Under the pieces are notes generated by a model. That model saw only the letters and a list, made by a program, of their open reading frames with translations, ran no database searches and had not been told where the DNA came from. A stretch of 64,000 bases of DNA from NCBI GenBank assembly GCA_963668625.2, contig CAXXKA010000005.1, positions 32,001 through 96,000 on the forward strand. Direction: 5' to 3'. Below are positions 29,708 through 43,351 of the stretch, in pieces. Positions within the stretch are counted from its first letter, which is position 1. Every line of letters begins with the position of its first letter. The stretch comes from an uncultured candidate division Zixibacteria bacterium (lineage in GTDB: Bacteria; Zixibacteria; MSB-5A5; UBA10806; 4484-95). A program made the position numbers and the translations under genes.

Positions 29708-31345
29708 TTGGATGATAGTGTTATGGACTATAAGAATGGCAGAAGGGCATTAATTGCAGATAATGAGATTAGAAAGTTAGGTAAAAAGGCTGAAGGAACT
29801 GTTACCGAAACAGAATTGAAAGAAGTATTGCGAAAGTATAACCTTCGTGATGGATTAATTTGTTTGGGGCAAATGTCAGTACAAGTTTTTAATGACCAAA
29901 GTATAAACAGAATTGGAAATGGAGCACTAAGTGATCCAGCAACAGGTATTATTATAACACAGTTTGCACTCGCTTACTTAGCAAATATTATGATTATTTC
30001 CGGTGCTAATGATTTTAAGGCAAAACTTATTAGCAATAAAGATAATTTGTTGGCATTGTTAAATATCTATAGTAATGGTTTAGAATTTCTTGAAACAAAT
30101 AATTATAATAAAACACCAACTGCAGAAAAAGAAATTATTTCTATTTTTGTGAGAATGAGTGGCGAACAATTAGAATATCAGTTTAATTATGTGCACCTAA
30201 TTTCAAGAACACTTATAGTATTTAATGAAATCGTTAAAGAGGTTGTTCCAGATAAATTTGATAAGCTGGAAAATATTTTTAAAACTGAAACTGGCTTAGC
30301 ATTAAATGAATATTTTACTTTAGCAATGGCTGTTTCGGCTGTATCACAAAAGACAGCTACTTTTCGCAAGGAATATTTAACAGAGGCAAATATCCCATCA
30401 ATACAGGAAATATTAAATAATTCAAAAGTAGATAGCTTTTTAAATATGCTGGCAATAGATTATAAAGGTTTTAGGGAGGACGATAAGAATAATAACGTTA
30501 ATCTTCATCCTATTTTTACAAAAACTAGATTTAATCCGCTCGTATTTTATCCAATAGTAAAAACAGATAAAAAAATGGAAGAACCATATGTGATACCAAG
30601 TACTATTACCTATTTAAAGAGGGCATATGGTGGATTGTACTGGTGGTTTCATCGTTATTTCGAGGCAAAAGGCATGCAACTAGATTTTCGAAACTACTAT
30701 GGTAAAGTATTTGAAAACTACGTAGGGCGTATTTTAAAAGGAATATATGGAAAAGAGAATGTCCATCCAGAAATAATATATCCAAAAGGTAAATTCATTG
30801 ATTGGTGGGTTGAGAATAATTCTACTATTTATCTTTTTGAGGCTAAGGCTTATCAATTTGCTCTTCCCACAAAGCAGACTGGTGATATTATGCTTATTGA
30901 AAATGAAGTAAAAACTAAGATGATTAAAGCTGTAAAGCAAGTTTATAAAAGAGTCTTGGATATTGAAAAGTACAAAGAATTGGCAGTTTTTAGAAATAAA
31001 AAGATAATACCTATAGTAGTGTTTTTTGAGATACCTTTAGTATCAGCTCATCTATATAAGGAGTTATTAGATGAAGAGTTGCAGAAACTTGAAGACGAGG
31101 GATTAGTAAATATTAAAAATCAAGAAATCTATTTTATTAATATAGAAGAATTAGAATTATATGCTGGAGCAGTTCATAAAGTATCAATTGAAGATGTATT
31201 TGCAAAATACGATAATAATATTAAGGAAGATTTTTTATCTATAATTAGTAAGGAATTAGGTAGGCTTCCTATAAATGAATACCTTGATAAAGTTTACAAT
31301 GATTTTCAGACAGAGATTACTGGAAAAACGCAGCAAGAATATTAA
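29708..31345 (+). CDS. AT-rich hypothetical protein with C-terminal PD-(D/E)xK (NERD-like) nuclease domain
   Basis: YGKVFENYVGRIL...FIDWWV...IYLFEAK pattern; much more AT-rich than the upstream genes. Confidence 0.65.
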   Translation: MDDSVMDYKNGRRALIADNEIRKLGKKAEGTVTETELKEVLRKYNLRDGLICLGQMSVQVFNDQSINRIGNGALSDPATGIIITQFALAYLANIMIISGANDFKAKLISNKDNLLALLNIYSNGLEFLETNNYNKTPTAEKEIISIFVRMSGEQLEYQFNYVHLISRTLIVFNEIVKEVVPDKFDKLENIFKTETGLALNEYFTLAMAVSAVSQKTATFRKEYLTEANIPSIQEILNNSKVDSFLNMLAIDYKGFREDDKNNNVNLHPIFTKTRFNPLVFYPIVKTDKKMEEPYVIPSTITYLKRAYGGLYWWFHRYFEAKGMQLDFRNYYGKVFENYVGRILKGIYGKENVHPEIIYPKGKFIDWWVENNSTIYLFEAKAYQFALPTKQTGDIMLIENEVKTKMIKAVKQVYKRVLDIEKYKELAVFRNKKIIPIVVFFEIPLVSAHLYKELLDEELQKLEDEGLVNIKNQEIYFINIEELELYAGAVHKVSIEDVFAKYDNNIKEDFLSIISKELGRLPINEYLDKVYNDFQTEITGKTQQEY

Positions 31346-31385
31346 CTCATAAAGCGAATGACAGATGAGAACATCCGCCGCTTAT

Positions 31386-31428
31386 ATAAAAAAAGGCGTT
31401 CACCAGAACGCCTTCAAATCATCGTGGC
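31386..31428. repeat. left copy of the 43-bp direct repeat bounding the cassette array
   Basis: ATAAAAAAAGGCGTTCACCAGAACGCCTTCAAATCATCGTGGC, identical to 43283-43325. Confidence 0.93.
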
Positions 31429-32154
31429 TGGCAGAAGTTTCCGCCTGCTGCTTAGAGACAGCGAGGTTAAATGGCGTAGTAAAGGGGCAGATGAGGTTAT
31501 TTACCATCTTAGAACAATAATTTTAATAATATTACATAATTGCTTGACAAAATAGAATACCCTAGCGCATATTACAGCATATTGGAGCAGGCAGTTTAGG
31601 AGCAGGTTACTTTTACTTCCCCGGAGAACAAATACTTGTATGTGAAGAACAGCCGGTACTCTCGGAAAATTGCTGGCTTGAGGATGTATTATCTTGGCCG
31701 CCAAGGATTTTAATAACGAATGTCGATGTAGTATGGCCTGATGGTCGAGAGTATGAACATACAAGTTTATACGGTTGCGGGTGTATAATAGGGGAAGACT
31801 ACCAGGATACTGTACGTAAAATAAACGGACTTGGTTATATAAGGTTTATAAATAGTGGCTTTCCATATTTCTGGCCTGTTTGTGAAGGTTATATTATTTA
31901 TGATACTTATGCATTTACCTGTATGAGAACCCCATGCCAGGGCGGTGGAGGTGCATTTGAGCCAAAACAATCGATAGCTTTTACTGATTCATTATATAAT
32001 GATTTCCCTGATACACTGGACGTTATTATCTCCGGCGATTCACCTTTATATTTCAAGGCCCGCTCTCATTACTGGTCGTATAGTGATTCAATATCCGCTA
32101 CGCTTTACATAAAAGATGTACTTGAGTCAACGCATACCGTATACCTTTATAACA
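31422..32154. repeat. 733-bp duplicated segment (junction + promoter + 5' effector fragment), copy 1
   Basis: Matches 36943-37675 (offset 5521); one SNP noticed. Confidence 0.9.
31544..31573 (+). promoter_or_regulatory. putative sigma70 promoter of the cassette array (second copy at 37065-37094)
   Basis: TTGACA-N18-CATATT. Confidence 0.5.
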
Positions 32155-32186
32155 AAGGATGAAAAGCCATGGGAAGATTAACTAAT
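31566..32186 (+). pseudogene. internally deleted effector fragment
   Basis: Matches the 5' part of the 37087-38862 frame up to 32154, then jumps straight to AAGGATGAAAAGCCATGGGAAGATTAA, the 3' end of the effector genes. The whole catalytic region is removed. Confidence 0.8.
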
Positions 32187-33215
32187 TTAGGATACGTTTT
32201 TACTTTTTTATTATCGATGGTTTCAATCAATAGCACTGCCGCTGCCCAATATTACTATGTTAATGGATATTCTATGGCAGAGGATGGATTGACAAACAAT
32301 GTTATCTACAAAATAAGTTTGGAAACAGTCGAGGTAATTGACAGCATAGTTTTTGATAGGCAGGGGGAATTTACTTCATCAACTCCCATATCTTTACAAA
32401 GGCCGGGCAGTGACTTAAAATTATTAGTTTGGGTAGGATATGGATTGCCTGGTAAAAATTCAATTCCAGACAATCCGGTTTTATCATACTATTGGATTAT
32501 TAATGAACGAAATTTTAAAATAGCTGGATCTGATAGTCTGCTGAATAATATTGTTTTAGGAATTAAACCTATCGGTATAGATTCAGTAGAATTTGACTGC
32601 ATCGGTTTTTCACAGGATAAAGATGTTTTAAAAAAGTACACCTTCGATAGGGATAACAATAGTTTTAGGATGATTGAACAAACCCCATATAATGAAAGGG
32701 AGATCAATGATGTAAGAATTGGAGACTACACTAATCCTTATTATTTGGCGTTAAATAACCAACGAAATTACTACTATGATTTTTCTAATGATCCTGATGA
32801 GCTTATAGATATCTTTAGTACCCAAAATAATATTGATGTTTCAAAGCAAATAAATGCCGGCGATCTTTCGCAGGAGAGCGTGATTTTGGGATATTCTCCG
32901 GAGTATGACAATATTTACTGTTTCAATTTTCGATTCAAGATACTGGCTATGTATCCGCATCCTGAATCACCGGATTCGATTTCAAATACTCTGAGGATTA
33001 TAAACGGCGAAACATTTGATGTAATCAATACTATTAACTTTGAACTTGGTGATATTTACTTGCCGCAAGAATTAGAAAACGCCGTCTACCAGGATGGATA
33101 TCTAATTCACTATTTCGCCAAAAGCGATGGCTATGGCCGTTATGACCCCGCTTATTTGTTAATTTTCGACACCCGCACCAACGAGGCCTCGTGGCTGCGT
33201 GTGGGATGGAGGTAA
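32169..33215 (+). CDS. cassette partner protein 1 (signal peptide; putative immunity protein)
   Basis: Signal peptide ending AAA-Q; C-terminus FDTRTNEASWLRVGWR. Confidence 0.8.
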   Translation: MGRLTNLGYVFTFLLSMVSINSTAAAQYYYVNGYSMAEDGLTNNVIYKISLETVEVIDSIVFDRQGEFTSSTPISLQRPGSDLKLLVWVGYGLPGKNSIPDNPVLSYYWIINERNFKIAGSDSLLNNIVLGIKPIGIDSVEFDCIGFSQDKDVLKKYTFDRDNNSFRMIEQTPYNEREINDVRIGDYTNPYYLALNNQRNYYYDFSNDPDELIDIFSTQNNIDVSKQINAGDLSQESVILGYSPEYDNIYCFNFRFKILAMYPHPESPDSISNTLRIINGETFDVINTINFELGDIYLPQELENAVYQDGYLIHYFAKSDGYGRYDPAYLLIFDTRTNEASWLRVGWR

Positions 33216-33270
33216 AATTTGTTCGTGGCTGGCAAAAGTTTCCGCCTGCTGCTTAGAGACAGCAATGTTA
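33169..33270. repeat. cassette junction repeat (~102 bp), also at 35028-35129, 36889-36990 and 39832-39933; half copies at 31422-31469 and 41754-41803
   Basis: ACACCCGCACCAACGAGGCCTCGTGGCTGCGTGTGGGATGGAGGTAAAATTTGTTCGTGGCTGGCA(G/A)AAGTTTCCGCCTGCTGCTTAGAGACAGCnnnGTTA. Confidence 0.93.
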
Positions 33271-34046
33271 CATTCTGGAGAGATTCATTATATGCCGTTG
33301 GTGGATCTTTAACAGTTGCTTGCGAAGGGTATTTGACTCCTGTTGAAAACATCAATAATTGCTTTAATATTGATACTGATAGTACAATTAATGATACTAC
33401 TACTATTCCTACAAGATTGATATTGATAGATAGTGATCCTTCAAATCAGATGTTTCTTGACTCATTACAATATGACATCGTAAAAACAATTGCATATTAT
33501 GAATGGGCTGGAAGTAGTGATAGTAGGCATTGCGATGATCCATATAATTCTCAATATAACAACTATTGGGATAATGTTATAGATGAGGGAGATACTTGTA
33601 TAGAAACCAGATTTCCTTGCGAAAATCGCTATTCTACAGCAACTGGCACAATGCAAATGTTACGTGGTACCAGGGAAAAGCTTTTTAACGGCTCGTTTGT
33701 AGGAGGTGGAGACACAACGGGATTTATTGGTTGCTCCTGGGATTGCCTCGCATGGAATTGGAAAATTAATGTATTCAATGGAAAATGGGTATATATAACT
33801 GATATGTTCCACTATATTAATAAAGATACCAATCCCCAACGAAATTGGGACTCACTTTATACTCCAGCTAGTGATTATTCGCCTGACTCAACAAATAAAG
33901 AAGATATTGCTGTTTACGGTTACCATCTAGGCTCAACAAAGATGAAAGCAATTAGAACACAAAGCGATTGGAACGATAAAGTCGTAGAAGATGAATATGT
34001 CAATAACGTAAGAAGATATAAGGATGAAAAGCCATGGGAAGATTAA
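33219..34046 (+). CDS. orphan lytic transglycosylase-like effector C-terminal fragment 1
   Basis: TIAYYE, STATGTMQM, INVFNGKW, IAVYGYHLG and YVNNVR are SLT-type motifs in the right order; TTG start after GGAGG. Confidence 0.65.
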   Translation: MFVAGKSFRLLLRDSNVTFWRDSLYAVGGSLTVACEGYLTPVENINNCFNIDTDSTINDTTTIPTRLILIDSDPSNQMFLDSLQYDIVKTIAYYEWAGSSDSRHCDDPYNSQYNNYWDNVIDEGDTCIETRFPCENRYSTATGTMQMLRGTREKLFNGSFVGGGDTTGFIGCSWDCLAWNWKINVFNGKWVYITDMFHYINKDTNPQRNWDSLYTPASDYSPDSTNKEDIAVYGYHLGSTKMKAIRTQSDWNDKVVEDEYVNNVRRYKDEKPWED

Positions 34047-35074
34047 CTAATTTAGGATACGTTTTTACTTTTTTATTATCGATGGTTTCAATCAATAGCA
34101 CTGCCGCTGCCCAATATTATTACGTTAATGGATATTCTATGGCAGAGGATGGATTGACAAACAATGTTATCTACAAAATAAGTTTGGAAACAGTCGAGGT
34201 AATTGACAGCATAGTTTTTGATAGGCAGGGGGAATTTACTTCATCAACTCCCATATCTTTACAAAGGCCGGGCAGTGACTTAAAATTATTAGTTTGGGTA
34301 GGATATGGATTGCCTGGTAAAAATTCAATTCCAGACAATCCGGTTTTATCATACTATTGGATTATTAATGAACGAAATTTTAAAATAGCTGGATCTGATA
34401 GTCTGCTGAATAATATTGTTTTAGGAATTAAACCTATCGGTATAGATTCAGTAGAATTTGACTGCATCGGTTTTTCACAGGATAAAGATGTTTTAAAAAA
34501 GTACACCTTCGATAGGGATAACAATAGTTTTAGGATGATTGAACAAACCCCATATAATGAAATTGAGATAAATAATGAAAGAATTGGAGACTACATTTTT
34601 CCTCACTACCTGGCGGAAAATAATCAGCGTAACTACTATTATGATTTTTTGCGTCATCCAAACATATATATATTTAGTACCCAAAATAATATTGATGTTT
34701 CAAAGCAAATAAATGCTGGCGATCTTTCACAGGAGAGTGTGATTTTGGGATATTCTCCGGAGTATGATAATATCTACTGTTTTAATTTTCGATACAAGAT
34801 ACTGGCAATGTATCCGCATCCCGAATCACCGGATTCGATTTCAAATACTCTGAGGATTATAAACGGCGAAACATTTGATGTAATCAATACTATTAATTTT
34901 GAACTGGGTGATATTTACTTGCCTAAAGAATACAATAAAGCTGATTATCAGGATGGATATCTAATTCACTATTTTGCCAAAAGCGATGGCTATGGCCGTT
35001 ATGACCCCGCTTATTTGTTAATTTTTAACACCCGCACCAACGAGGCCTCGTGGCTGCGTGTGGGATGGAGGTAA
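34034..35074 (+). CDS. cassette partner protein 2 (mosaic paralogue of partner 1)
   Basis: Protein is identical to partner 1 over the first ~175 aa, then has two divergent patches; same C-terminal motif. Confidence 0.8.
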   Translation: MGRLTNLGYVFTFLLSMVSINSTAAAQYYYVNGYSMAEDGLTNNVIYKISLETVEVIDSIVFDRQGEFTSSTPISLQRPGSDLKLLVWVGYGLPGKNSIPDNPVLSYYWIINERNFKIAGSDSLLNNIVLGIKPIGIDSVEFDCIGFSQDKDVLKKYTFDRDNNSFRMIEQTPYNEIEINNERIGDYIFPHYLAENNQRNYYYDFLRHPNIYIFSTQNNIDVSKQINAGDLSQESVILGYSPEYDNIYCFNFRYKILAMYPHPESPDSISNTLRIINGETFDVINTINFELGDIYLPKEYNKADYQDGYLIHYFAKSDGYGRYDPAYLLIFNTRTNEASWLRVGWR

Positions 35075-35077
35075 AAT

Positions 35078-35923
35078 TTGTTCGTGGCTGGCAGAAGTTT
35101 CCGCCTGCTGCTTAGAGACAGCGAGGTTACATTCTGGAGAGATTCATTGTATGCTGTAGGTGGTTCGTTAACTGTTGCGTGCCAGGGGTATTTATCCCCG
35201 GTTGAAAATATCAATAATTGCTTTCAAATAGATACTGACAGTACATTAAATGATTCTACTAAAATCCCAGATTTATTGATACTTATTGATCGAGATCCAC
35301 CAAACGCTTTATTCTCTGATAGTCTTGGTACAGATAGAAATAGGGCTATTGCATGGGCTGAAGCCGCAGGCACTTTGGATATAACTCATTGTCATAATCC
35401 ATATAATCCCTTATGGAATCATTACTGGGATACCAGAATAAGCGGGGCGGATACATGCTACGATACGCGTACTCCTTGTGAAAATGCTGGTGGCACCGAT
35501 ACTGGGATAATGCAGATATATAGAACTGTATGGGATACAGTATTTACCACACCAAGTAGCTTCCCACAATATCCCGCTGGCTTTACAATATGCAAACGGG
35601 ATAGTCTGGAATGGAATTGGATGATTTGTATACATAATGGACGGTGGATACTGGAAGATTGTATGCCTGCACGTATGAAAGCTTCTCAACAAGCTTGGCC
35701 TGAATCTTGTTCATATGCAGATTGTGATTCTGTTCCTGATATGCCTAACCAAGAAGACTTAGCTAATTATGGTTATCATGCAGGTGAAGGCAGAATGAGG
35801 ATTATTGATACTGAAAAACTATGGAAACAAAAGATATTTAAACCTAATAATCTTTTTGAAATCGATTGGGCAAATTATATTAAGAATGTAAGGAGGATAA
35901 AGTATAATGGAAATTTATGGTAA
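35078..35923 (+). CDS. orphan lytic transglycosylase-like effector C-terminal fragment 2
   Basis: AIAWAE, TDTGIMQI, ICIHNGRW, LANYGYHAG and NYIKNVR. Confidence 0.65.
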   Translation: MFVAGRSFRLLLRDSEVTFWRDSLYAVGGSLTVACQGYLSPVENINNCFQIDTDSTLNDSTKIPDLLILIDRDPPNALFSDSLGTDRNRAIAWAEAAGTLDITHCHNPYNPLWNHYWDTRISGADTCYDTRTPCENAGGTDTGIMQIYRTVWDTVFTTPSSFPQYPAGFTICKRDSLEWNWMICIHNGRWILEDCMPARMKASQQAWPESCSYADCDSVPDMPNQEDLANYGYHAGEGRMRIIDTEKLWKQKIFKPNNLFEIDWANYIKNVRRIKYNGNLW

Positions 35924-36935
35924 AAACGCGATAGGCATTCTGTTAGCTGTGTCTATTTGCGCGAGCATTTGCTTTGCACAGCAATATGCAGTCAATACCT
36001 ACGATGAAGACTCTCCCGGTTTTCCCAAAAGGATTAAAACAGTTTTTATAGACCTTGAAAATAAAAATATAATTGAAAGTGTTGTAATTGGTGAACAAGG
36101 TCAAATAATTAATAAAACACCATTAGTCATAAAAAAGCAATCTGATTCGTTGTTAATTACTGTAGTCATGGAAAGATGTTATTGCGATAATGCAACATTA
36201 GGGCAAACCAGAGCAAGAATTACCTTATTTGATTTTGAGTCCATAAGAATTTTAGATTCTTATGATGATACTAGCCTATTTATTACTTCTCTAGAACAAC
36301 TTGAAGGCGAGAGAATTTATATGTCCGGTTCGTTAATTTACGATCATAATAGAACAATTAAAGGCATATATACTCTTAACAATGTTTTTCATTTAAATTT
36401 GGAGGAATCGAGATCTCGGGATTATTCTTACAATCTATTAGATGGCATAAATAACTTTGATTTACTTGAGCTGGTTGATACGCGATTAAATTTATATAAG
36501 ACATCAAATGGTTCACAACGTTTTATTTTACGGATAAATAACTCCAGAGACCAGTTGTTAGATTCATTAGTTTTAGATAATGAACCTTACAGAAGCCAAG
36601 TTTTTGCCATAAAGGATACACTTATTTATGTATTCAATCAAAATTATGAAATTCATATGGAATTTACGACAAAAAATCGCGAAGATAATTGGATTGATAG
36701 TCATGTTAAGTTGTATGATTTAAGCGATTTCTCTTTAATTGATTCAATACCATTACCTGATTATCCTGAAAACGACTATATAGGCGGTGATTTTAATAAA
36801 GCTGATGTAGTCGGTGACTTTATCGTATATTACTTTTTTGGTAGAGAGGGCTTAACCCGTTATGCTCCAGCCATGCTATTCATTTTCGACACCCGCACCA
36901 ACGAGGCCTCGTGGCTGCGTGTGGGATGGAGGTAA
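35907..36935 (+). CDS. cassette partner protein 3
   Basis: Signal peptide (CFA-Q), divergent body, invariant C-terminus. Confidence 0.8.
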   Translation: MEIYGKNAIGILLAVSICASICFAQQYAVNTYDEDSPGFPKRIKTVFIDLENKNIIESVVIGEQGQIINKTPLVIKKQSDSLLITVVMERCYCDNATLGQTRARITLFDFESIRILDSYDDTSLFITSLEQLEGERIYMSGSLIYDHNRTIKGIYTLNNVFHLNLEESRSRDYSYNLLDGINNFDLLELVDTRLNLYKTSNGSQRFILRINNSRDQLLDSLVLDNEPYRSQVFAIKDTLIYVFNQNYEIHMEFTTKNREDNWIDSHVKLYDLSDFSLIDSIPLPDYPENDYIGGDFNKADVVGDFIVYYFFGREGLTRYAPAMLFIFDTRTNEASWLRVGWR

Positions 36936-37086
36936 AATTTGTTCGTGGCTGGCAGAAGTTTCCGCCTGCTGCTTAGAGACAGCGAGGTTAAATGGCGTAG
37001 TAAAGGGGCAGATGAGGTTATTTACCATCTTAGAACAATAATTTTAATAATATTACATAATTGCTTGACAAAATAGAATACCCTAG

Positions 37087-38862
37087 CGCATATTACAGCA
37101 TATTGGAGCAGGCAGTTTAGGAGCAGGTTACTTTTACTTCCCCGGAGAACAAATACTTGTATGTGAAGAACAGCCGGTACTCTCGGAAAATTGCTGGCTT
37201 GAGGATGTATTATCTTGGCCGCCAAGGATTTTAATAACGAATGTCGATGTAGTATGGCCTGATGGTCGAGAGTATGAACATACAAGTTTATACGGTTGCG
37301 GGTGTATAATAGGGGAAGACTACCAGGATACTGTACGTAAAATAAACGGACTTGGTTATATAAGGTTTATAAATAGTGGCTTTCCATATTTCTGGCCTGT
37401 TTGTGAAGGTTATATTATTTATGATACTTATGCATTTACCTGTATGAGAACCCCATGCCAGGGCGGTGGAGGTGCATTTGAGCCAAAACAATCGATAGCT
37501 TTTACTGATTCATTATATAATGATTTCCCTGATACACTGGACGTTATTATCTCCGGCGATTCACCTTTATATTTCAAGGCCCGCTCTCATTACTGGTCGT
37601 ATAGTGATTCAATATCCGCTACGCTTTACATAAAAGATGTACTTGAGTCAACGCATACCGTGTACCTTTATAACAGCGGTGATTCATGTTTTTATGGCAG
37701 CTTTGAAAACAGTAAAGAGCTTGGATTGAAATCATTCGGTATGGCACATATCGACATCGATTCGGTACGATTAGAATTAGATCCTTTTGCCGTTACTTTC
37801 GATGAAGTTGGTGTTTGTCTGCCGAAGCTAATAACCTCAACCGATACCGTTATTATCAATCATTCTGATATGAAAGTAAGCGCGGATTTTATAGCCGGCC
37901 TGGAGATAATACATGATGTAACCGGGGATAGAGTAGAGCCTGCCGAGATTGTTGATAGTGTTGGGTACAGGTACAAAAGCAAATGGGTATCTAATACAAG
38001 TTATTCTAAAACAACTAAACATAAAATATTCTATCGCTCCTTTCCAGATGATACTACGAAGTCATTGTGGTGGGACGGTAACAGAGATAGTTGTAGTGTA
38101 ACTTTTTGTAGAGATTCATTGTATGCGGTTGGGGGTTCTCTATCAGTTGCTTGCGAAGGGTATTTGACTCCTGTTGAAAACATCAATAATTGCTTTAATA
38201 TTGATACTGATAGTACAATTAATGATACTACTACTATTCCTACAAGATTGATATTGATTGATAGTGATCCTTCGAATCAGATGTTTCTTGACTCATTACA
38301 ATATGACATTATTAAAGCTATTGCATGGCAGGAATATGCTGGCAGTAATGATGGAACTCATTGTACGCCTTATCATAATCGATATAATAATTATTGGGAT
38401 AGTAGAATTACTGAAAGTGATACATGTCTCGATACGAGATTCCCTTGCGAAAATCGCTTATCTACAGCCACAGGTATAATGCAAATGTTACGTAGTACTT
38501 GGGAGAACTTATTTAATTTAAGCGGCGTTTATACTGAGCCCGATAGTTTTTATGCATGTAAATGGGATAGTTTAGCTTGGAGTTGGAAGATAAATATATT
38601 TAATGGTAAATATATCCATCAAAAAAGCTGCTTTTATCATATGACCAGTGCACAAAAGGCATGGGATTCTTTATATACTCCAGCTTCTGATTATACACCT
38701 GATTCTACTAATAGAGAAGATTTAGCTACTTATGGTTATAAAGAAGGTAGCACGTTTATGAGAAAAATTAGAACTTTAAAAGACTGGAATACTAAAATTA
38801 AATCGTTTTTTTACGTAAATAACGTAAGAATGTATAAGGATGAAAAGCCATGGGAAGATTAG
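37087..38862 (+). CDS. longest effector frame (Cys-rich N-region + lytic transglycosylase-like CT), probably 5'-truncated
   Basis: Frame is open from 37087, 119 codons before the first ATG at 37444. CT motifs: AIAWQE, STATGIMQM, INIFNGKY, LATYGYKEG, YVNNVR, PWED. Confidence 0.65.
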   Translation, partial: RILQHIGAGSLGAGYFYFPGEQILVCEEQPVLSENCWLEDVLSWPPRILITNVDVVWPDGREYEHTSLYGCGCIIGEDYQDTVRKINGLGYIRFINSGFPYFWPVCEGYIIYDTYAFTCMRTPCQGGGGAFEPKQSIAFTDSLYNDFPDTLDVIISGDSPLYFKARSHYWSYSDSISATLYIKDVLESTHTVYLYNSGDSCFYGSFENSKELGLKSFGMAHIDIDSVRLELDPFAVTFDEVGVCLPKLITSTDTVIINHSDMKVSADFIAGLEIIHDVTGDRVEPAEIVDSVGYRYKSKWVSNTSYSKTTKHKIFYRSFPDDTTKSLWWDGNRDSCSVTFCRDSLYAVGGSLSVACEGYLTPVENINNCFNIDTDSTINDTTTIPTRLILIDSDPSNQMFLDSLQYDIIKAIAWQEYAGSNDGTHCTPYHNRYNNYWDSRITESDTCLDTRFPCENRLSTATGIMQMLRSTWENLFNLSGVYTEPDSFYACKWDSLAWSWKINIFNGKYIHQKSCFYHMTSAQKAWDSLYTPASDYTPDSTNREDLATYGYKEGSTFMRKIRTLKDWNTKIKSFFYVNNVRMYKDEKPWED

Positions 38863-39878
38863 TTCAATTAACCTCATTAATTATGACTATAGCGGTCATT
38901 ACATCATTAGTGAATGCTCAAACGATATATCTTAACTCATATGCATTAGATGAGAGATCAATAAGCAATTTTATTTATAAAGTTAATATAGAAAGCCAAT
39001 CTATTGAGGATTCACTATTTTTACCAACCAATGGATCTTTCTGTATGAAAAAGCCAATTATAGTTGATTATAGTAACAGTAGTTATATTCTCTCATTTTG
39101 GGTAAATGGATTGTATGCTAAAAACTCGCAACTTGGAATACATACTACATCTCATTATTGCGCCGTTGATATGGAGACATTCGATATGGTTAATTGTGAT
39201 AGTCTTCTTGATGTAATGGTAGGTGATAAATACTCGTATGATAATGACACTTTGATTGTTGAATTATATGAAGAAAATACCGGTGTATGGGAAGAAAGTA
39301 AATTATTATTTGATAGGGATAACAGACTAATTGAGCAAAGTAGCCGAAATTTAACAAGACAAGATTTAGAATCTATTATGGTTGGTAATTATGTTGAACC
39401 TGATATAATTTTCTCACAGGATACTATTAGCTATTATTGGGGGTATGAGGATGTTGGTGAAAATTCATATGTTAATTTACTTGCGGTTATTGATAGTGAT
39501 ATTATTTTTGAAAAGAGAATTGCCGATAGAGTATCTGCAAATATCATTGTGGGATTTAATTCAGAAACAAATATGATATATGCATTTATTTTACCTTTTA
39601 AGCTTCTATCATATAATCCAATCGAACAATCGCCTGAAAATATAACACCTGAAATACTAGTAATTAGTCCGGATAATTTTGAAATAGTGCAAACTCTTAA
39701 TATTGATATGGGAGATATATATCTGGGTCGTGAAACTGGAAACTGTAGTTCATTCGATTCCTATTTATACTATTACTTCTTCCTCCAAGATGGTGTTGGC
39801 CGTTATGACCCCGCTTATTTGTTAATTTTTAACACCCGCACCAACGAGGCCTCGTGGCTGCGTGTGGGATGGAGGTAA
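38850..39878 (+). CDS. cassette partner protein 4
   Basis: Signal peptide (VNA-Q), overlaps the effector stop, invariant C-terminus. Confidence 0.8.
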   Translation: MGRLVQLTSLIMTIAVITSLVNAQTIYLNSYALDERSISNFIYKVNIESQSIEDSLFLPTNGSFCMKKPIIVDYSNSSYILSFWVNGLYAKNSQLGIHTTSHYCAVDMETFDMVNCDSLLDVMVGDKYSYDNDTLIVELYEENTGVWEESKLLFDRDNRLIEQSSRNLTRQDLESIMVGNYVEPDIIFSQDTISYYWGYEDVGENSYVNLLAVIDSDIIFEKRIADRVSANIIVGFNSETNMIYAFILPFKLLSYNPIEQSPENITPEILVISPDNFEIVQTLNIDMGDIYLGRETGNCSSFDSYLYYYFFLQDGVGRYDPAYLLIFNTRTNEASWLRVGWR

Positions 39879-39881
39879 AAT

Positions 39882-40742
39882 TTGTTCGTGGCTGGCAGAA
39901 GTTTCCGCCTGCTGCTTAGAGACAGCGAGGTTACATTCTGGAGAGATTCATTGTATGCTGTAGGTGGTTCGTTAACTGTTGCGTGCCAGGGGTATTTATC
40001 CCCGGTTGAAAATATCAATAATTGCTTTCAAATAGATACTGACAGTACATTAAATGATTCTACTAAAATCCCAGATTTATTGATACTTATTGATCGAGAT
40101 CCACCAAACGCTTTATTCTCTGATAGTCTTGGTACAGATAGAAATAGGGCTATTGCATGGGCTGAAGCCGCAGGCACTTTGGATATAACTCATTGTCATA
40201 ATCCATATAATCCCTTATGGAATCATTACTGGGATACCAGAATAAGCGGGGCGGATACATGTTCTGATACTCATATGCCATGTGAAAATGCGATTGGTGT
40301 TGATACTGGTGTTATGCAAATATATAGACAATGGAAACCACAGAGTTCTACAGATACAAGTGGTTGGGCATTACATTTTGCTAGATCAAATAGTAAACCT
40401 AGTGGGTATATACAAGTAATGTGGGATAGCCTTGCTTGGAATTGGGCTATATGCATTTATAATGGCAAATACATTCACGATGTATATATGCCATCAAGAT
40501 TTACTTCTGCGCAAAAACTTTTTCCAGATTCATGCTCTTACGCTAACTGCGACACTTTTCCGTTAAATGCTAATAAAGAAGACTTAAAAAGCTATGGATA
40601 TCATAGAGGTGACCCTGAGATGAAATCAATCACAACTATTAATTGGAATGAAATGGTTGCTGATACTACTGATCCTATTAGCGATGGAGCACAATATGTA
40701 CAAAGAGTTAGATTGTTCAAATATACAAAACCATGGGAGTAA
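39882..40742 (+). CDS. orphan lytic transglycosylase-like effector C-terminal fragment 3
   Basis: First ~127 aa identical to fragment 2, then divergent: DTGVMQI, ICIYNGKY, SYGYHRG, QYVQRVR, KPWE. Confidence 0.65.
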   Translation: MFVAGRSFRLLLRDSEVTFWRDSLYAVGGSLTVACQGYLSPVENINNCFQIDTDSTLNDSTKIPDLLILIDRDPPNALFSDSLGTDRNRAIAWAEAAGTLDITHCHNPYNPLWNHYWDTRISGADTCSDTHMPCENAIGVDTGVMQIYRQWKPQSSTDTSGWALHFARSNSKPSGYIQVMWDSLAWNWAICIYNGKYIHDVYMPSRFTSAQKLFPDSCSYANCDTFPLNANKEDLKSYGYHRGDPEMKSITTINWNEMVADTTDPISDGAQYVQRVRLFKYTKPWE

Positions 40743-41800
40743 AAATGAATTGTAGATTAAGATTCATTGGATTAGTTTGTTGGATAATATTATTACACTC
40801 ATTAGCTTTGTCGGAAGCATATGTTGTGCATTCATATACAAGCAACAATCCTACTTCTTACAATGTATCAGTAAGCCTAATTAATCTTAATACACTGGAA
40901 ATAATCGACAATATTGAATTACCTATGACTGGCACAATAATGAACAAAAAGCCAATAGTGGTACTTGTGGATGACCAGGAATTGTTTTTATGTTTTACCC
41001 TTAATGGATGTATGGGGAAAAACGCAGATTTATCAGGTAACGGAGAAGTGTTGTATTATTCCGTGTATACAATTCGTGATAATTCTATACAGCTATTGCA
41101 TACCGATAGCTTGAGTGCCGTTATCGTTGATTACGTAGAGCAACTTCAGGGAGAGTCAGGTTTCAGATTGTCAATAAGGGATGCCCTGCGTGATAATTAT
41201 CTATTTGATCCGGGTTTATACTCAATCGATAATAATTTTGATTTTAGTCCAATCAGTCCAATTGAAAATGACAATGAAATGCCAGGTTACATTGAGCAGA
41301 TTGATGAATTCGAAAACTTGAATATTATTCGAAATGCAGAAGCAGATCATCTTTATTATTCATTTCATAATTCTCAATACTGGCTTTTAAAACTTGATAC
41401 TCGGGATAATTCAATAGTTGATTCTCTTCAACTAAGATATTCTGGCGGTCAAGCGACTATTTTTGGTTATCATCCATTGAGAGATAAGTTTTATTGTTTT
41501 CACACTAACTATGAGATCCATGGGAAATTCGTGGAGAAAAGCAGAGAGAACTATTATATCACGCCTGATGTCCAAATATATAATCCTTTAACATTGGAGT
41601 TGATGGAAAGCTTTGGAATACCGGACTATCCCGAGGGCAATTACCCCGGAAAAGAAAACGGCGCTTTCGATACGGTCGGTGATTATATAATTTATTATTT
41701 TTTTGAGGATGACTGGTTTCCAGTATATGCTCCAGCTATGCTATTCATTTTTAACACCCGCACCAACGAGGCCTCGTGGCTGCGTGTGGGATGGAGGTAA
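40733..41800 (+). CDS. cassette partner protein 5
   Basis: Signal peptide, most similar to partner 3 (NYEIH, PDYPE, YAPAMLFIF), invariant C-terminus. Confidence 0.8.
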   Translation: MGVKMNCRLRFIGLVCWIILLHSLALSEAYVVHSYTSNNPTSYNVSVSLINLNTLEIIDNIELPMTGTIMNKKPIVVLVDDQELFLCFTLNGCMGKNADLSGNGEVLYYSVYTIRDNSIQLLHTDSLSAVIVDYVEQLQGESGFRLSIRDALRDNYLFDPGLYSIDNNFDFSPISPIENDNEMPGYIEQIDEFENLNIIRNAEADHLYYSFHNSQYWLLKLDTRDNSIVDSLQLRYSGGQATIFGYHPLRDKFYCFHTNYEIHGKFVEKSRENYYITPDVQIYNPLTLELMESFGIPDYPEGNYPGKENGAFDTVGDYIIYYFFEDDWFPVYAPAMLFIFNTRTNEASWLRVGWR

Positions 41801-41804
41801 AATC

Positions 41805-43286
41805 ATGTATAAGTATATAGCTTTACTACTCATTACATTAACTTTCAGATTTGCCTTTGGCGAACCGCAAGTTAGTACAACAACTTTTTTGAATTCCACT
41901 GAACCAACTAAGATGTGTCAGGATTACATTGATAAAGAATATGGCGCCTTGTCAAGAGCTATGCTTAAGCCTACTGGCGGCGCGCTTATCAGAGTTAATA
42001 TGTTGACCAGCACATATTGCAAGTTTATTTTTTGTGATGAACCGGCAAACCGTTTATATATTTTCCATCTTCTGGATACATCACCTGTAAGAACGCCCGT
42101 CAGAATGTCTACGTATGGCTTACAGAAAGATCCCGTATGGTTCAGTATAACTCACGAGGACTCATTAATACCTGATACGATAACAGCTCCATCCATGGAT
42201 AGGGATAGTATTGGCTATTTCTGGAGTCCCGTTGATATCGCAGTTTCCTCATGCGGAAATACCTATTACACGAATCATGATTATATATATGTTGTTGATA
42301 GCGGAAACCGCAGAATTGTCAAACTTCGCTACGATATAATGACTGATTCAATCCTCTGGATCGGTAGTTTTGGAGATGATATTCTAATTGATCCAACCGC
42401 GATCGACTATGCCGATTACAATGATGCTGATACGACTAATGATGATGTTTACGTAACGGATGGTTATCACGCTAAAATATTTCGGTTCTCCGCTACCGGT
42501 GAATACGAAACCTCATACGGCGGGCGAGGCACGAGCCTGGCGGAAATAGGTTATCCGACGGGAATTGCGGTTTCCACAGATACCCAATTGCCTGATAGAA
42601 TTTATATTACCGATTCGAAATACCATCGAGTCATCCGCTATTATTCCGGTACGAGCGGCCCGATAGTAGCTCAAAAACAATATAAATTCCCTCATTATCT
42701 ACCCGGTGATAATAAAGTGCCATATCTAAGCGCTATTGATACGGATGGCGCTGGTAATGTATATGTTTTAGATAGATTTGCGCACAAAATGTATATCCTA
42801 TCAGGCGACATAGAATCAAGAATTAAGGAATATGGAGAATATGGTTTCGGACTGATGCAGTTTAATCACCCATCGGATATTTATATTGATCATACACCGG
42901 TAAACGAGGAGATGGTCGTCTGCGAGATGTGGGATACCACTTCAGGTATTCAATCGTTCGATATTTCCTACAGTATATTTAAAGAAACGGACGAAATCCC
43001 GCTACCCAAAAAGTACAGTCTGTATCAAAATTACCCGAACCCATTCAACTCAGTCACACAAATAAAGTTTGATCTTCCTCGTCCAAGTAATGTTAAGCTG
43101 GAGATTTTTAATATTCTTGGTCAAAAAGTTAAAACTATAAAAAATGATGTAATGCCTGCGGGAAGTCATGCTATTGTTTGGAAAGGCGAAAATGACGCTG
43201 GTGATGAGATATCATCCGGTATGTATTTTTATAAGCTAAGCACATCTGATTATACCGAATCCCGAAAAATGTTATTGCTAAAATAA
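41805..43286 (+). CDS. secreted NHL-repeat protein with T9SS-type C-terminal (FlgD/Por_Secre_tail-like) domain
   Basis: Start ATG 41805 after GGAGG; signal peptide; IYVVDSGNRRI, PTGIAV, IYITDSKYHRV; LYQNYPNPFN...GMYFYKL...KMLLLK. Confidence 0.85.
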   Translation: MYKYIALLLITLTFRFAFGEPQVSTTTFLNSTEPTKMCQDYIDKEYGALSRAMLKPTGGALIRVNMLTSTYCKFIFCDEPANRLYIFHLLDTSPVRTPVRMSTYGLQKDPVWFSITHEDSLIPDTITAPSMDRDSIGYFWSPVDIAVSSCGNTYYTNHDYIYVVDSGNRRIVKLRYDIMTDSILWIGSFGDDILIDPTAIDYADYNDADTTNDDVYVTDGYHAKIFRFSATGEYETSYGGRGTSLAEIGYPTGIAVSTDTQLPDRIYITDSKYHRVIRYYSGTSGPIVAQKQYKFPHYLPGDNKVPYLSAIDTDGAGNVYVLDRFAHKMYILSGDIESRIKEYGEYGFGLMQFNHPSDIYIDHTPVNEEMVVCEMWDTTSGIQSFDISYSIFKETDEIPLPKKYSLYQNYPNPFNSVTQIKFDLPRPSNVKLEIFNILGQKVKTIKNDVMPAGSHAIVWKGENDAGDEISSGMYFYKLSTSDYTESRKMLLLK

Positions 43287-43351
43287 AAAAAGGCGTTCAC
43301 CAGAACGCCTTCAAATCATCGTGGCCGGCAGACATCCCCGTCTGCGGCCGC
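43283..43351. terminator. terminator hairpin (= right copy of the 43-bp direct repeat) followed by an intact REP-like hairpin
   Basis: AAAAAAAGGCGTTC-ACCA-GAACGCCTT between convergent genes (U-tract on the minus strand), then GTGGCCGGCAGACATCCCCGTCTGCGGCCGC. Confidence 0.75.

What the first reader, a model, noticed from the sequence alone, without database searches (positions are those of the whole stretch)
31386..43325. Polymorphic lytic-transglycosylase effector / partner cassette array (candidate new toxin-immunity system)
Seen: five tandem units of [effector fragment -> overlapping signal-peptide ~345-aa partner], joined by a ~100-bp repeat and ending in an NHL + T9SS-CTD gene. The four intact effector C-termini are divergent but keep motifs in SLT order: (A/T)IA(W/Y)xE, (A/D)TG.MQ, .I.NG, YGY..G, Y(V/I)..VR. 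Effector stops overlap partner starts. Established: this order matches the lytic transglycosylase/lysozyme fold with its catalytic Glu, and orphan CT-immunity pairs behind shared homology are the layout of Rhs, CDI and MafB loci. Inference: a peptidoglycan-attacking polymorphic toxin with periplasmic immunity proteins, diversified by recombination. I do not recognise a described family for it.
Basis: partly seen in the sequence, partly recalled or inferred. Interest (0 to 1): 0.88.

Follow-up and report, generated by a model that had tools for sequence, protein, structure and literature searches.

The report
Peptidoglycan-cutting toxin and inhibitor cassette array
An uncultured Zixibacteria genome carries a foreign island with five intact genes for propeller-shaped inhibitor proteins, interleaved with beheaded copies of a lysozyme-like cell-wall enzyme, which looks like a new toxin-immunity family kept here mainly as a shield.

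Summary
Five [effector piece -> overlapping ~345-aa signal-peptide partner] units are joined by a near-identical ~110-nt repeat and closed by an NHL + T9SS-CTD gene.

- **Effector C-terminus:** it has no Pfam, NCBIfam or PDB sequence match. Its model matches lytic transglycosylases (MltC Z 10.8, Slt 10.5, MltE 9.9).
- **Partner:** a confidently modelled beta-propeller (pLDDT 96).
- **Pairing:** CT divergence tracks the downstream partner, not the upstream one (rho 0.61 vs -0.15).
- **Predicted complex:** the partner sits over residues flanking the invariant Glu416, Glu455 and the YGY motif (score 0.92, best control 0.33).
- **Distribution:** the system is found only in one order of Candidatus Zixiibacteriota.
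- **Signal peptide:** all 19 full-length homologues have one, but no effector copy in this genome does.
- **Island:** a congener lacks the ~13.8-kb low-GC island.

Best reading: a new polymorphic peptidoglycan-glycosidase/immunity family, present here as an immunity array plus silent CT cassettes. Toxicity, neutralisation and the export route are untested.

The parts
29708..31345 (+). GapS1-like gene. It forms the left part of the same low-GC insertion and is context, not part of the cassette system.
   Evidence: NCBIfam NF047931 E 5.8e-23, 81.5 bits, below the cut-off of 320. GC 0.30-0.32. The region is absent from congener G002.
31380..31451 (+). Left copy of the 72-nt direct repeat: a minus-strand terminator-like hairpin plus the R element.
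   Evidence: family D10 (88% identity to 43277-43348). In the own genome the repeat occurs only in this array.
31566..32162 (+). Effector N-fragment (family profile positions 62-242) with no start codon or signal peptide. An internal deletion joins it to the last codons of a CT.
   Evidence: The first 300 nt compared (31422-31721) are 100% identical to 36943-37242 (D4). The junction is visible family D8.
32169..33215 (+). Partner A1: a signal-peptide beta-propeller (candidate immunity protein).
33219..34046 (+). Orphan CT1, preceded by R (33216-33266). It carries the lysozyme-like domain.
   Evidence: profile positions 379-640.
34034..35074 (+). Partner A2, 95% identical to A1 apart from one divergent patch.
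35078..35923 (+). Orphan CT2.
35907..36935 (+). Partner B.
36936..37086 (+). R element plus an AT-rich non-coding stretch in front of the long effector frame.
37087..38862 (+). 5'-truncated effector, 591 codons open and the first Met at 37444. It has tandem Ig-like domains and a GH23/lysozyme-like CT (residues ~392-591).
38850..39878 (+). Partner C, the copy that was modelled: a beta-propeller predicted to cap the CT cleft.
39882..40742 (+). Orphan CT4. Its first ~360 nt are 100% identical to CT2; identity then falls to 33-62%.
40733..41800 (+). Partner D.
41805..43286 (+). NHL-repeat protein with a signal peptide and a type-A T9SS C-terminal domain. It is the conserved last gene of the operon in relatives.
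   Evidence: 44-46% identity across loci; follows the last partner by 2-7 nt.
43277..43348 (+). Right copy of the 72-nt direct repeat (hairpin plus a diverged R), lying between the NHL stop and the proline dehydrogenase stop.
33166..33215 (+). GC-rich conserved 3' end of the partner gene (FDTRTNEASWLRVGWR). It recurs at 35025-35074, 36886-36935, 39829-39878 and 41751-41800.
   Evidence: GC3 is 0.81-0.88 here against 0.22-0.32 in the gene bodies. It is conserved in 13 sequences from 8 genomes.

Best explanation
The array belongs to an unnamed three-gene system found in one order of Candidatus Zixiibacteriota.

1. **Effector.** A Sec-exported protein of about 650 aa: signal peptide, N-domain, tandem Ig-like domains, and a C-terminal lysozyme-like (GH23/lytic-transglycosylase-like) glycosidase that attacks peptidoglycan.
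2. **Partner.** A Sec-exported beta-propeller, translationally coupled to the effector gene upstream of it. It binds over that enzyme's catalytic cleft and so acts as its cognate periplasmic inhibitor (immunity).
3. **NHL propeller with a T9SS sorting domain.** A conserved gene that closes the operon.

CT-plus-partner cassettes are exchanged by homologous recombination between two conserved arms. One is the VTFxRDSLYAVGG region of the effector. The other is the GC-rich last ~50 nt of the partner gene.

In this genome the system lies in a horizontally acquired low-GC island. All five partner genes are intact, while every effector copy lacks a start codon and signal peptide. Here it therefore most likely works as a multi-immunity array with silent CT cassettes, not as an armed weapon.

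Shown: the anatomy, folds, co-variation, mosaicism, distribution and the insertion. Inferred: enzymatic activity, toxicity, neutralisation, the interbacterial role and the export route.
For: **Fold.** The CT residues ~392-591 match MltC 4c5f (Z 10.8, rmsd 3.3, 138 aligned), Slt 5o2n (Z 10.5), MltE 4hjy (9.9), MltF 5aa1 (9.7), phiKZ gp144 (8.9), g-type lysozyme (8.3) and Tse3 4luq (6.6). Helix 407-416 ends at the invariant E416. The ESM Atlas places SLT clusters among the nearest neighbours (0.93, a lead only).

**Partner.** pLDDT 96, pTM 0.90. It matches propellers such as 2ece (Z 15.6) and the YVTN propeller 1l0q (Z 14.6).

**Export.** 19 of 19 homologues of 600 aa or more, and 60 of 61 partner representatives of 330-380 aa, have a hydrophobic N-terminus.

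**Pairing.** Every CT is directly followed by a partner (16 of 16 pairs). Among the 16 CT-downstream pairs, identity of the CT domain correlates with identity of the downstream partner: Spearman 0.61, reached by 0 of 2000 permutations. For the 10 CT-upstream pairs the figure is -0.15. For the same 10 CTs the comparison is 0.55 vs -0.15.

**Predicted complex.** Score 0.92 against a best control of 0.33; that mark was reached by 58 of 80 solved complexes and 2 of 110 mismatched pairs. The runs agree in at least 90% of contacts and the partner pLDDT is 91. The interface includes effector residues 417, 419-420, 456, 458-461 and 550-557, which flank E416, E455 and the YGY motif.

**Recombination.** Cassette 2 vs cassette 4 is 100% identical for ~360 nt, then 33-62%, then 93% at the partner's 3' end. 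Orphan CTs begin at profile positions 363-382 in 4 genomes.

**Immunity-like retention.**
- This genome has 5 of 5 partners intact and no effector copy with profile positions 1-60.
- L028, a complete chromosome, has 3 partners and one truncated CT.
- L035 has 2 partners and one CT fragment.
- L050 has a solitary partner.

**Acquisition.** In congener G002 the GAF and proline dehydrogenase genes lie 97 nt apart.
Against: - No activity, toxicity or protection has been measured, and all carriers are uncultured MAGs.
- No sequence-level homology to SLT is demonstrable. There is no Pfam hit at E <= 0.1 and 0 PDB sequence hits at E <= 10. hhalign against five own-genome SLT domains aligns only 11 columns around GLMQ (probability 2%).
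- I could not see residue-level structural alignments, so which invariant Glu (416 or 455) is catalytic is an inference. Whether the enzyme is a lytic transglycosylase or a hydrolase is also open.
- The effector has no T9SS CTD or other known outer-membrane export signal, so delivery to other cells is unexplained.
- Co-variation can arise from linkage of CT and partner as one recombining block, without any binding.
- The complex score is a model's own confidence. It was obtained with my own alignments, only the cognate pair was run, and the CT chain's pLDDT in the complex was 66-71.
- All CTs share one fold, unlike classic polymorphic toxins that swap toxin types.
- Cassette order rests on one assembly.
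Confidence: 0.6

Rival explanations
1. A self-directed cell-wall remodelling enzyme with a dedicated periplasmic regulator. This would resemble a specialised lytic transglycosylase that opens peptidoglycan for an envelope machine or for the T9SS-anchored NHL protein. The extra copies would be decaying duplicates, with no interbacterial role.
For: The effector is Sec-exported with no known route beyond the periplasm. It is always co-operonic with a conserved surface protein. Specialised LTs such as EtgA are among the fold matches (Z 7.3).
Against: - Housekeeping enzyme-regulator pairs are not expected to form arrays of divergent cassettes with sharp mosaic breakpoints.
- They are not expected to keep intact regulators where the enzyme is beheaded or absent.
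- The system is patchy: 10 of 23 other genomes in the one order that has it (f1 3/9, f2 7/14) and 0 of 261 in the rest of the phylum. Here it lies on an acquired island.
- The genome already has five ordinary SLT proteins.
Confidence: 0.15
2. An anti-phage or abortive-infection module. The propeller holds a lytic enzyme in check until infection releases it and the cell lyses. Diversity would then reflect an arms race with phage proteins.
For: The island's other gene is GapS1-like (sub-threshold). The predicted inhibitor-enzyme complex fits a held-in-check design.
Against: No PADLOC family matches the effector, partner or NHL protein. An abortive module needs an exportable enzyme, yet several genomes keep only partners. 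In two other genera the array lies next to tsaD/trk genes rather than among defence genes.
Confidence: 0.08
3. An integron-like array, in which the ~110-nt repeats are attC-type sites used by a site-specific recombinase to capture cassettes.
For: The repeat sits between cassettes and its homology ends at GTTA (GTTAAAT/GTTACAT). The array is flanked by a direct repeat.
Against: - Neither strand of the repeat folds as an attC-like hairpin. The z-scores are -0.38 and -1.84, and no terminal inverse cores pair.
- No integrase domain appears among the 28 ORFs scanned between 14.3 and 54.2 kb.
- The R half of the repeat is absent from the other genomes examined, whose orphan CTs abut the partner stop directly.
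- 0 of 13 predicted pairs covary.
Confidence: 0.03
4. An assembly artefact, in which strain variants of a single effector-partner pair were collapsed into a false tandem array.
For: No short-read contig bridges a repeat, and loose ends at 34814 and 36134 show alternative neighbours in the sample.
Against: - Depth is about 2x exactly over the segments that the assembly duplicates.
- The genome is in 10 contigs.
- Independent MAGs show the same tandem layout, with up to 4 CT-partner units (L032). One of them is a complete chromosome (L028).
Confidence: 0.04

Closest known systems
Family-1 lytic transglycosylases / GH23 (Slt70, MltC, MltE; Pfam SLT PF01464)
   Same: The lysozyme-like fold (Z 10.8-7.8). 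An invariant Glu at the end of a helix, followed by TG(I/T/V)MQ and later YGYxxG. These resemble, in the same order, the ES, GLMQ and AYNxG motifs seen in this genome's own SLT proteins.
   Different: No Pfam, PDB-sequence or hhalign-level similarity. A Cys-rich insertion makes the Glu-to-GxMQ distance 47 residues, against about 17 in the own-genome SLT domains. There is a second invariant Glu (E455). The domain is fused to Ig-like domains.
Polymorphic toxin loci with orphan CT-immunity modules (Rhs, CDI, MafB; recalled), and T6SS orphan immunity arrays (papers seen only as the search listing and abstract starts)
   Same: A variable C-terminal domain with the gene directly downstream co-varying. 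There are 5'-truncated orphan copies that begin in a conserved pre-CT region, mosaic recombination tracts, and immunity-like genes retained without a toxin.
   Different: No RHS, TPS, PAAR, LXG or MafB-type trafficking domain. All CTs have one fold. The downstream recombination arm is the conserved GC-rich 3' end of the partner gene. A conserved third gene (NHL-CTD) closes the operon.
TANFOR-domain polymorphic toxins of Bacteroidetes (PMC7073777; passages read)
   Same: The toxins carry a signal peptide and lack a T9SS CTD. They are encoded next to T9SS-CTD substrates in T9SS-bearing bacteria. A T9SS link is hypothesised there and is possible here; SprA is present in this genome.
   Different: No TANFOR domain. 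The characterised TANFOR toxin domain is a DNase, whereas here the CT is a glycosidase fold. The lineage is Zixibacteria.
Periplasmic immunity proteins against peptidoglycan-degrading effectors, e.g. Tse1/Tsi1 (PMC3391265, passages read) and Tse3/Tsi3 (PDB 4luq, listed)
   Same: A periplasmic all-beta inhibitor predicted to occlude the active site of a wall-degrading enzyme. Tsi1 is described as a partial beta-propeller.
   Different: Here the partner is a complete ~320-residue propeller of a family with no Pfam model. The enzyme is Sec-exported rather than T6SS-injected. Binding is only predicted.

Membership tests
SLT / GH23 lytic transglycosylase (PF01464) | Match to the family's sequence model | tested here: not met
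   No Pfam hit at E <= 0.1 for any of the 4 CT-bearing ORFs. hhalign against 5 own-genome SLT domains aligned 11 columns, probability 2%.
SLT / GH23 lytic transglycosylase (PF01464) | Lysozyme-like alpha-helical fold | tested here: met
   VIA-align against 48,161 chains: MltC Z 10.8 (138 aligned, rmsd 3.3), Slt 10.5, MltE 9.9, MltF 9.7. CT block pLDDT is mostly 80-95, with two dips.
SLT / GH23 lytic transglycosylase (PF01464) | Catalytic Glu at the C-terminal end of a helix, followed by GLMQ and AYNxG-type motifs | tested here: inconclusive
   E416 is invariant in 34 of 34 sequences and ends helix 407-416. G463, M465, Q466 and Y551 are also invariant. No residue-level structural alignment was available, and a second invariant Glu (E455) exists.
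SLT / GH23 lytic transglycosylase (PF01464) | Cleavage of the MurNAc-GlcNAc bond with a 1,6-anhydro product | not testable with these tools
   Needs an enzyme assay.
Polymorphic toxin-immunity system | Variable toxin domain with a cognate gene immediately downstream that co-varies with it | tested here: met
   16 of 16 CTs are followed by a partner. Spearman 0.61 for the downstream partner against -0.15 for the upstream one.
Polymorphic toxin-immunity system | Orphan CT-immunity modules sharing a conserved region with the full-length gene | tested here: met
   (orphans start at profile positions 363-382).
Polymorphic toxin-immunity system | Recognised N-terminal trafficking or secretion domain | tested here: not met
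   Only a Sec signal peptide in homologues. No Pfam, NCBIfam or PADLOC domain in the effector.
Polymorphic toxin-immunity system | Toxicity of the CT and specific neutralisation by the partner | not testable with these tools
   There is only a predicted complex: score 0.92 against a best control of 0.33; that mark was reached by 58 of 80 solved complexes and 2 of 110 mismatched pairs.
T9SS cargo | C-terminal sorting domain (Por_Secre_tail / TIGR04183) | tested here: not met
   Absent from the effectors and partners. Present in the NHL protein (PF18962 E 5.7e-07; TIGR04183 E 1.4e-10). SprA is present in the genome.
Integron gene cassettes | attC hairpin between cassettes and an adjacent intI | tested here: not met
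   Folds unremarkable. No integrase domain among the 28 ORFs scanned.
YVTN / lactonase-type beta-propeller | Propeller fold; sequence-model match | tested here: inconclusive
   Fold met (2ece Z 15.6; 1l0q Z 14.6). No Pfam or NCBIfam propeller family matches.

The most novel reading that the evidence does not exclude
The system is a T9SS-coupled interbacterial weapon. The conserved NHL-propeller protein, itself a T9SS substrate, would bind the CTD-less effector in the periplasm, perhaps through its Ig-like domains. It would then carry or display it at the cell surface. That would make this the first peptidoglycan-degrading polymorphic toxin delivered through type IX secretion. In the same reading, the GC-rich 50-nt end of the immunity gene has been fixed as a pan-lineage handle for cassette capture.
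Probability: 0.18. Interest if true: 0.78.

Novelty: new member of a known kind. Interest (0 to 1): 0.55.

Why it matters
- It would add an unnamed toxin-immunity family from an uncultured phylum, with three new protein families that lack any Pfam or NCBIfam model.
- It would show a complete beta-propeller serving as an immunity protein against a cell-wall glycosidase.
- It would offer a concrete candidate for the open question of whether type IX secretion takes part in bacterial warfare.
- It gives a clean natural example of immunity genes outliving their toxins on an acquired island.
- The predicted interface and the cassette set provide ready cognate and non-cognate pairs for testing specificity.

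Tried and rejected
- **Stop-codon read-through.** At three junctions the partner and the following CT are in one frame, separated by a single TAA. That continuity belongs to one repeated sequence. It is not conserved in other genomes: in L032 two of three junctions differ in frame, as do L028 and L035. The whole-library profile search found no fused partner-CT form. All 91 hits were 371 aa or shorter, except one 834-aa repeat protein.
- **Integron attC.** Rejected.
- **Conserved RNA or DNA structure in the partner's 3' end.** 0 of 13 pairs covary; the region is too conserved to test.
- **Rfam.** Only a sub-threshold STnc430 hit (32 bits against a gathering score of 47).
- **R/hairpin as a dispersed repeat.** It occurs only in this array in the own genome. 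It is not in the GAF-proDH intergenic region of G001 or G002.
- **Foldseek on the whole effector model.** The Ig-like domains filled the hit list. The CT fold came from the VIA-align wide search.
- **Sequence searches.** The PDB sequence search gave 0 hits and PADLOC gave none.
- **Literature.** The search 'Zixibacteria' + 'lytic transglycosylase' returned 2 papers. Neither is about this system, judged from the listing and abstract starts only.
- **Expression.** No RNA holder was listed for the array.
- **Tools unavailable.** Non-cognate complex predictions were not possible because the cap is one job. Supplementary files of the papers were not consulted.


Full report
**1. Anatomy**

The region 29.5-43.4 kb has 0.30-0.42 GC, against 0.45-0.52 in the flanks. 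On the plus strand it holds the following ORFs:

| Feature | Coordinates | Note |
|---|---|---|
| 545-aa ORF | 29708-31345 | GapS1-like |
| Effector N-fragment | 31566-32162 | no start codon or signal peptide |
| Partner A1 | 32169-33215 | |
| CT1 | 33219-34046 | |
| Partner A2 | 34034-35074 | |
| CT2 | 35078-35923 | |
| Partner B | 35907-36935 | |
| Long effector frame | 37087-38862 | 591 codons |
| Partner C | 38850-39878 | |
| CT4 | 39882-40742 | |
| Partner D | 40733-41800 | |
| NHL / T9SS-CTD gene | ~41805-43286 | |

- Each CT stop overlaps the next partner start by 10-17 nt.
- The junction repeat has five copies. It consists of the partner's last ~50 nt (…FDTRTNEASWLRVGWR), a TAA stop, and a 51-nt element I call R, which ends in GTTA.
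- R with a minus-strand terminator-like hairpin also flanks the whole array as a 72-nt direct repeat (31380-31451 and 43277-43348, 88% identity).
- These sequences occur nowhere else in the genome.

**2. The effector copies here are beheaded**

- The 591-codon frame has no ATG, GTG or TTG before Met 37444.
- It aligns over 99-100% of its length with homologues of 622-683 aa. Those carry about 60 extra N-terminal residues.
- All 19 homologues of 600 aa or more have a hydrophobic signal-like N-terminus.
- A profile search of the whole genome (95.9% complete, 10 contigs) finds five pieces. None covers profile positions 1-60.
- The first unit is a second copy of this truncated gene with an internal deletion. 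The first 300 nt compared (31422-31721) are 100% identical to 36943-37242.
- The five partner genes are all intact and have signal peptides.

**3. Folds**

Sequence libraries give nothing for the effector or partner.
- Pfam, NCBIfam and PADLOC have no match.
- A family profile finds 0 PDB sequences at E <= 10.

*Effector model.* An AlphaFold model built on a 34-sequence alignment has mean pLDDT 77.6; block means across the CT are mostly 80-95, with two dips.
- Residues ~130-395 form tandem Ig-like sandwiches. Foldseek returns macroglobulin, C3 and S-layer domains.
- Residues ~392-591 match lytic transglycosylases and goose-type lysozyme in a search of 48,161 chains:

| Structure | Z |
|---|---|
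| MltC 4c5f | 10.8 (rmsd 3.3, 138 aligned) |
| Slt 5o2n | 10.5 |
| MltE | 9.9 |
| MltF | 9.7 |
| phiKZ gp144 | 8.9 |
| g-type lysozyme | 8.3 |
| Slt70 | 7.9 |
| MltD | 7.8 |

- E416 (IAWxE) is invariant and ends helix 407-416. G463, M465, Q466 and Y551 are also invariant.
- The spacing between the Glu and GxMQ is 47 residues, against about 17 in this genome's own SLT proteins. This probably explains why hhalign aligns only the GLMQ motif (11 columns, probability 2%).
- A second invariant Glu, E455, lies in the inserted loop. Whether the enzyme is a lytic transglycosylase or a hydrolase is therefore open.
- The ESM Atlas lists SLT clusters among the nearest neighbours of the CT (0.93, a lead only).

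*Partner model.* pLDDT is 96 and pTM 0.90. It is a beta-propeller (2ece Z 15.6; YVTN propeller 1l0q Z 14.6). The conserved C-terminal WLRVGWR is its last strand.

**4. Pairing**

- In ten loci every CT is directly followed by a partner (16 of 16).
- For the 16 CT-downstream pairs, identity between glycosidase domains correlates with identity between their downstream partners (Spearman 0.61, 120 comparisons). None of 2000 permutations reached that value.
- There is no correlation with the upstream partners (-0.15 over 10 pairs).
- For the same ten CTs the values are 0.55 and -0.15.
- Linkage alone could produce this pattern. It still defines the cassette as CT plus downstream partner.

A predicted complex of the CT (residues 338-591) with partner C scored 0.92.
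- The best control scored 0.33.
- That mark was reached by 58 of 80 solved complexes and 2 of 110 mismatched pairs.
- The runs agree in at least 90% of contacts, and the partner pLDDT is 91.
- The calibration holds only roughly, because my own alignments were used.
- The interface includes effector residues 417, 419-420, 456, 458-461, 468-475 and 550-557. The propeller therefore sits on the residues flanking both invariant Glu and the YGY motif, as an active-site inhibitor would.

**5. Recombination**

- Cassette 2 vs cassette 4 is 100% identical over the first ~360 nt. Identity then drops to 33-62% and returns to 93% at the partner's 3' end.
- Cassette 1 vs cassette 3 shows a 92-100% tract over 33293-33470.
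- A1 and A2 are identical except for one patch.
- Orphan CTs start at profile positions 363-382 in four genomes.
- Many database fragments instead begin near the 'DTVFIRSDSMK' segment. The orphan CT of L028 begins at profile position 300.
- The partner's last 16 codons have GC3 of 0.81-0.88, against 0.22-0.32 for the gene bodies, in all 5 window partners.
- The same ~50 nt are conserved across 13 sequences from 8 genomes.
- Between genomes, codon identity at identical residues is 0.60 in that stretch and 0.37-0.50 elsewhere.
- I read this stretch as the downstream homology arm. A structural role could not be tested, since 0 of 13 pairs covary.

**6. Distribution and context**

- The effector has 32 relatives among 5.8 billion proteins. 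None carries a Pfam domain, and the only source-given name is 'hypothetical protein'.
- The partner has 91 representatives at 50% identity among 1.84 billion proteins.
- Among 285 genomes of the phylum the partner occurs in 11. All are in one order (f1: 3 of 9 plus the own genome; f2: 7 of 14).
- The effector occurs in 9 of 60 relatives, and those genomes all have the partner too.
- Named records are Candidatus Zixiibacteriota MAGs, some labelled Ignavibacteria.
- The layout [CT-partner]n followed by NHL-CTD recurs in these genomes. The NHL protein is 44-46% identical across loci.
- Intact effectors with a signal peptide were seen in G020 and G003 only.
- A complete chromosome (L028) has three partners and one truncated CT. 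L035 has two partners and one CT fragment. L050 has a solitary partner.
- In congener G002 the GAF and proline dehydrogenase genes lie 97 nt apart, so the ~13.8-kb region is an insertion. G001 has a different T9SS-CTD gene at that site.
- The genome encodes SprA.

**7. Interpretation**

- The data fit a Sec-exported peptidoglycan glycosidase with a cognate periplasmic propeller inhibitor, diversified by cassette exchange.
- Intact inhibitors persisting beside beheaded enzymes is what selection for immunity predicts. It argues against a housekeeping enzyme-regulator pair.
- In this window the array most likely acts as a stack of immunity genes with silent CT cassettes.
- How an intact effector would reach another cell is unknown, because it lacks a T9SS CTD.
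- There is a parallel in the TANFOR toxins of Bacteroidetes. They have signal peptides and no CTD, and they are encoded next to T9SS substrates (PMC7073777, passages read).
- Tsi1, a partial beta-propeller, is a precedent for an all-beta periplasmic immunity protein against a wall-degrading effector (PMC3391265, passages read).

**8. Limits**

- Nothing here measures activity, toxicity or protection.
- Cassette order rests on one assembly. Short-read contigs from one sample agree base for base and in relative depth, but they stop at the repeats.
- Only the cognate complex could be predicted.
- Paper supplements were not seen.

Noticed in passing
window 29708-31345: A 545-aa low-GC ORF beside the array matches the GapS1 antiphage family below its cut-off (E 5.8e-23, 81.5 bits against 320). 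It has no PADLOC or Pfam hit. It is part of the same insertion.
   Followed up: partly
window 31380-31451 and 43277-43348: A 72-nt direct repeat (88% identity) carrying a minus-strand terminator-like hairpin brackets the array plus the NHL gene. Its origin (att-like duplication or recombination scar) is unexplained. It is absent from the empty site of the congeners.
   Followed up: partly
window 33213-33221, 35072-35080, 39876-39884: The partner stop (TAA) is followed in the same frame by AAT TTG. The GGAGG formed by the Gly-Trp-Arg codons lies 6 nt upstream of that TTG. Orphan CTs could therefore be translated without a signal peptide. Whether they are is unknown.
   Followed up: partly
window 34814 and 36134: Single contigs in two or three runs of the same sample match the array up to these points and then continue into unlike sequence. 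This hints at alternative cassette neighbours in the population.
   Followed up: no
L047 (G001:C313), the site between the GAF and proline dehydrogenase genes: In a congener the same intergenic site holds a different 466-aa T9SS-CTD gene that shares only the CTD with the NHL protein. The site may be an insertion hot spot.
   Followed up: partly
P0113: An 834-aa protein matches partner profile positions 43-88 in ten separate stretches, that is, a tandem repeat of one blade segment.
   Followed up: no
L048 (G003:C105) 4583-5707: A divergent partner ends in …TRTNTARWLNVGWR. It is followed by a 389-aa ORF that does not match the NHL profile, so this may be a variant locus.
   Followed up: no
window 44609-46234 (minus strand): A second T9SS-CTD protein with CarboxypepD_reg repeats lies just beyond the proline dehydrogenase gene.
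   Followed up: no
L015 and L017 (G010, G020): In two genera of the sister family the array lies next to tsaD and trkH/trkA genes. This suggests a stable chromosomal site there, unlike the insertion seen in this window.
   Followed up: no
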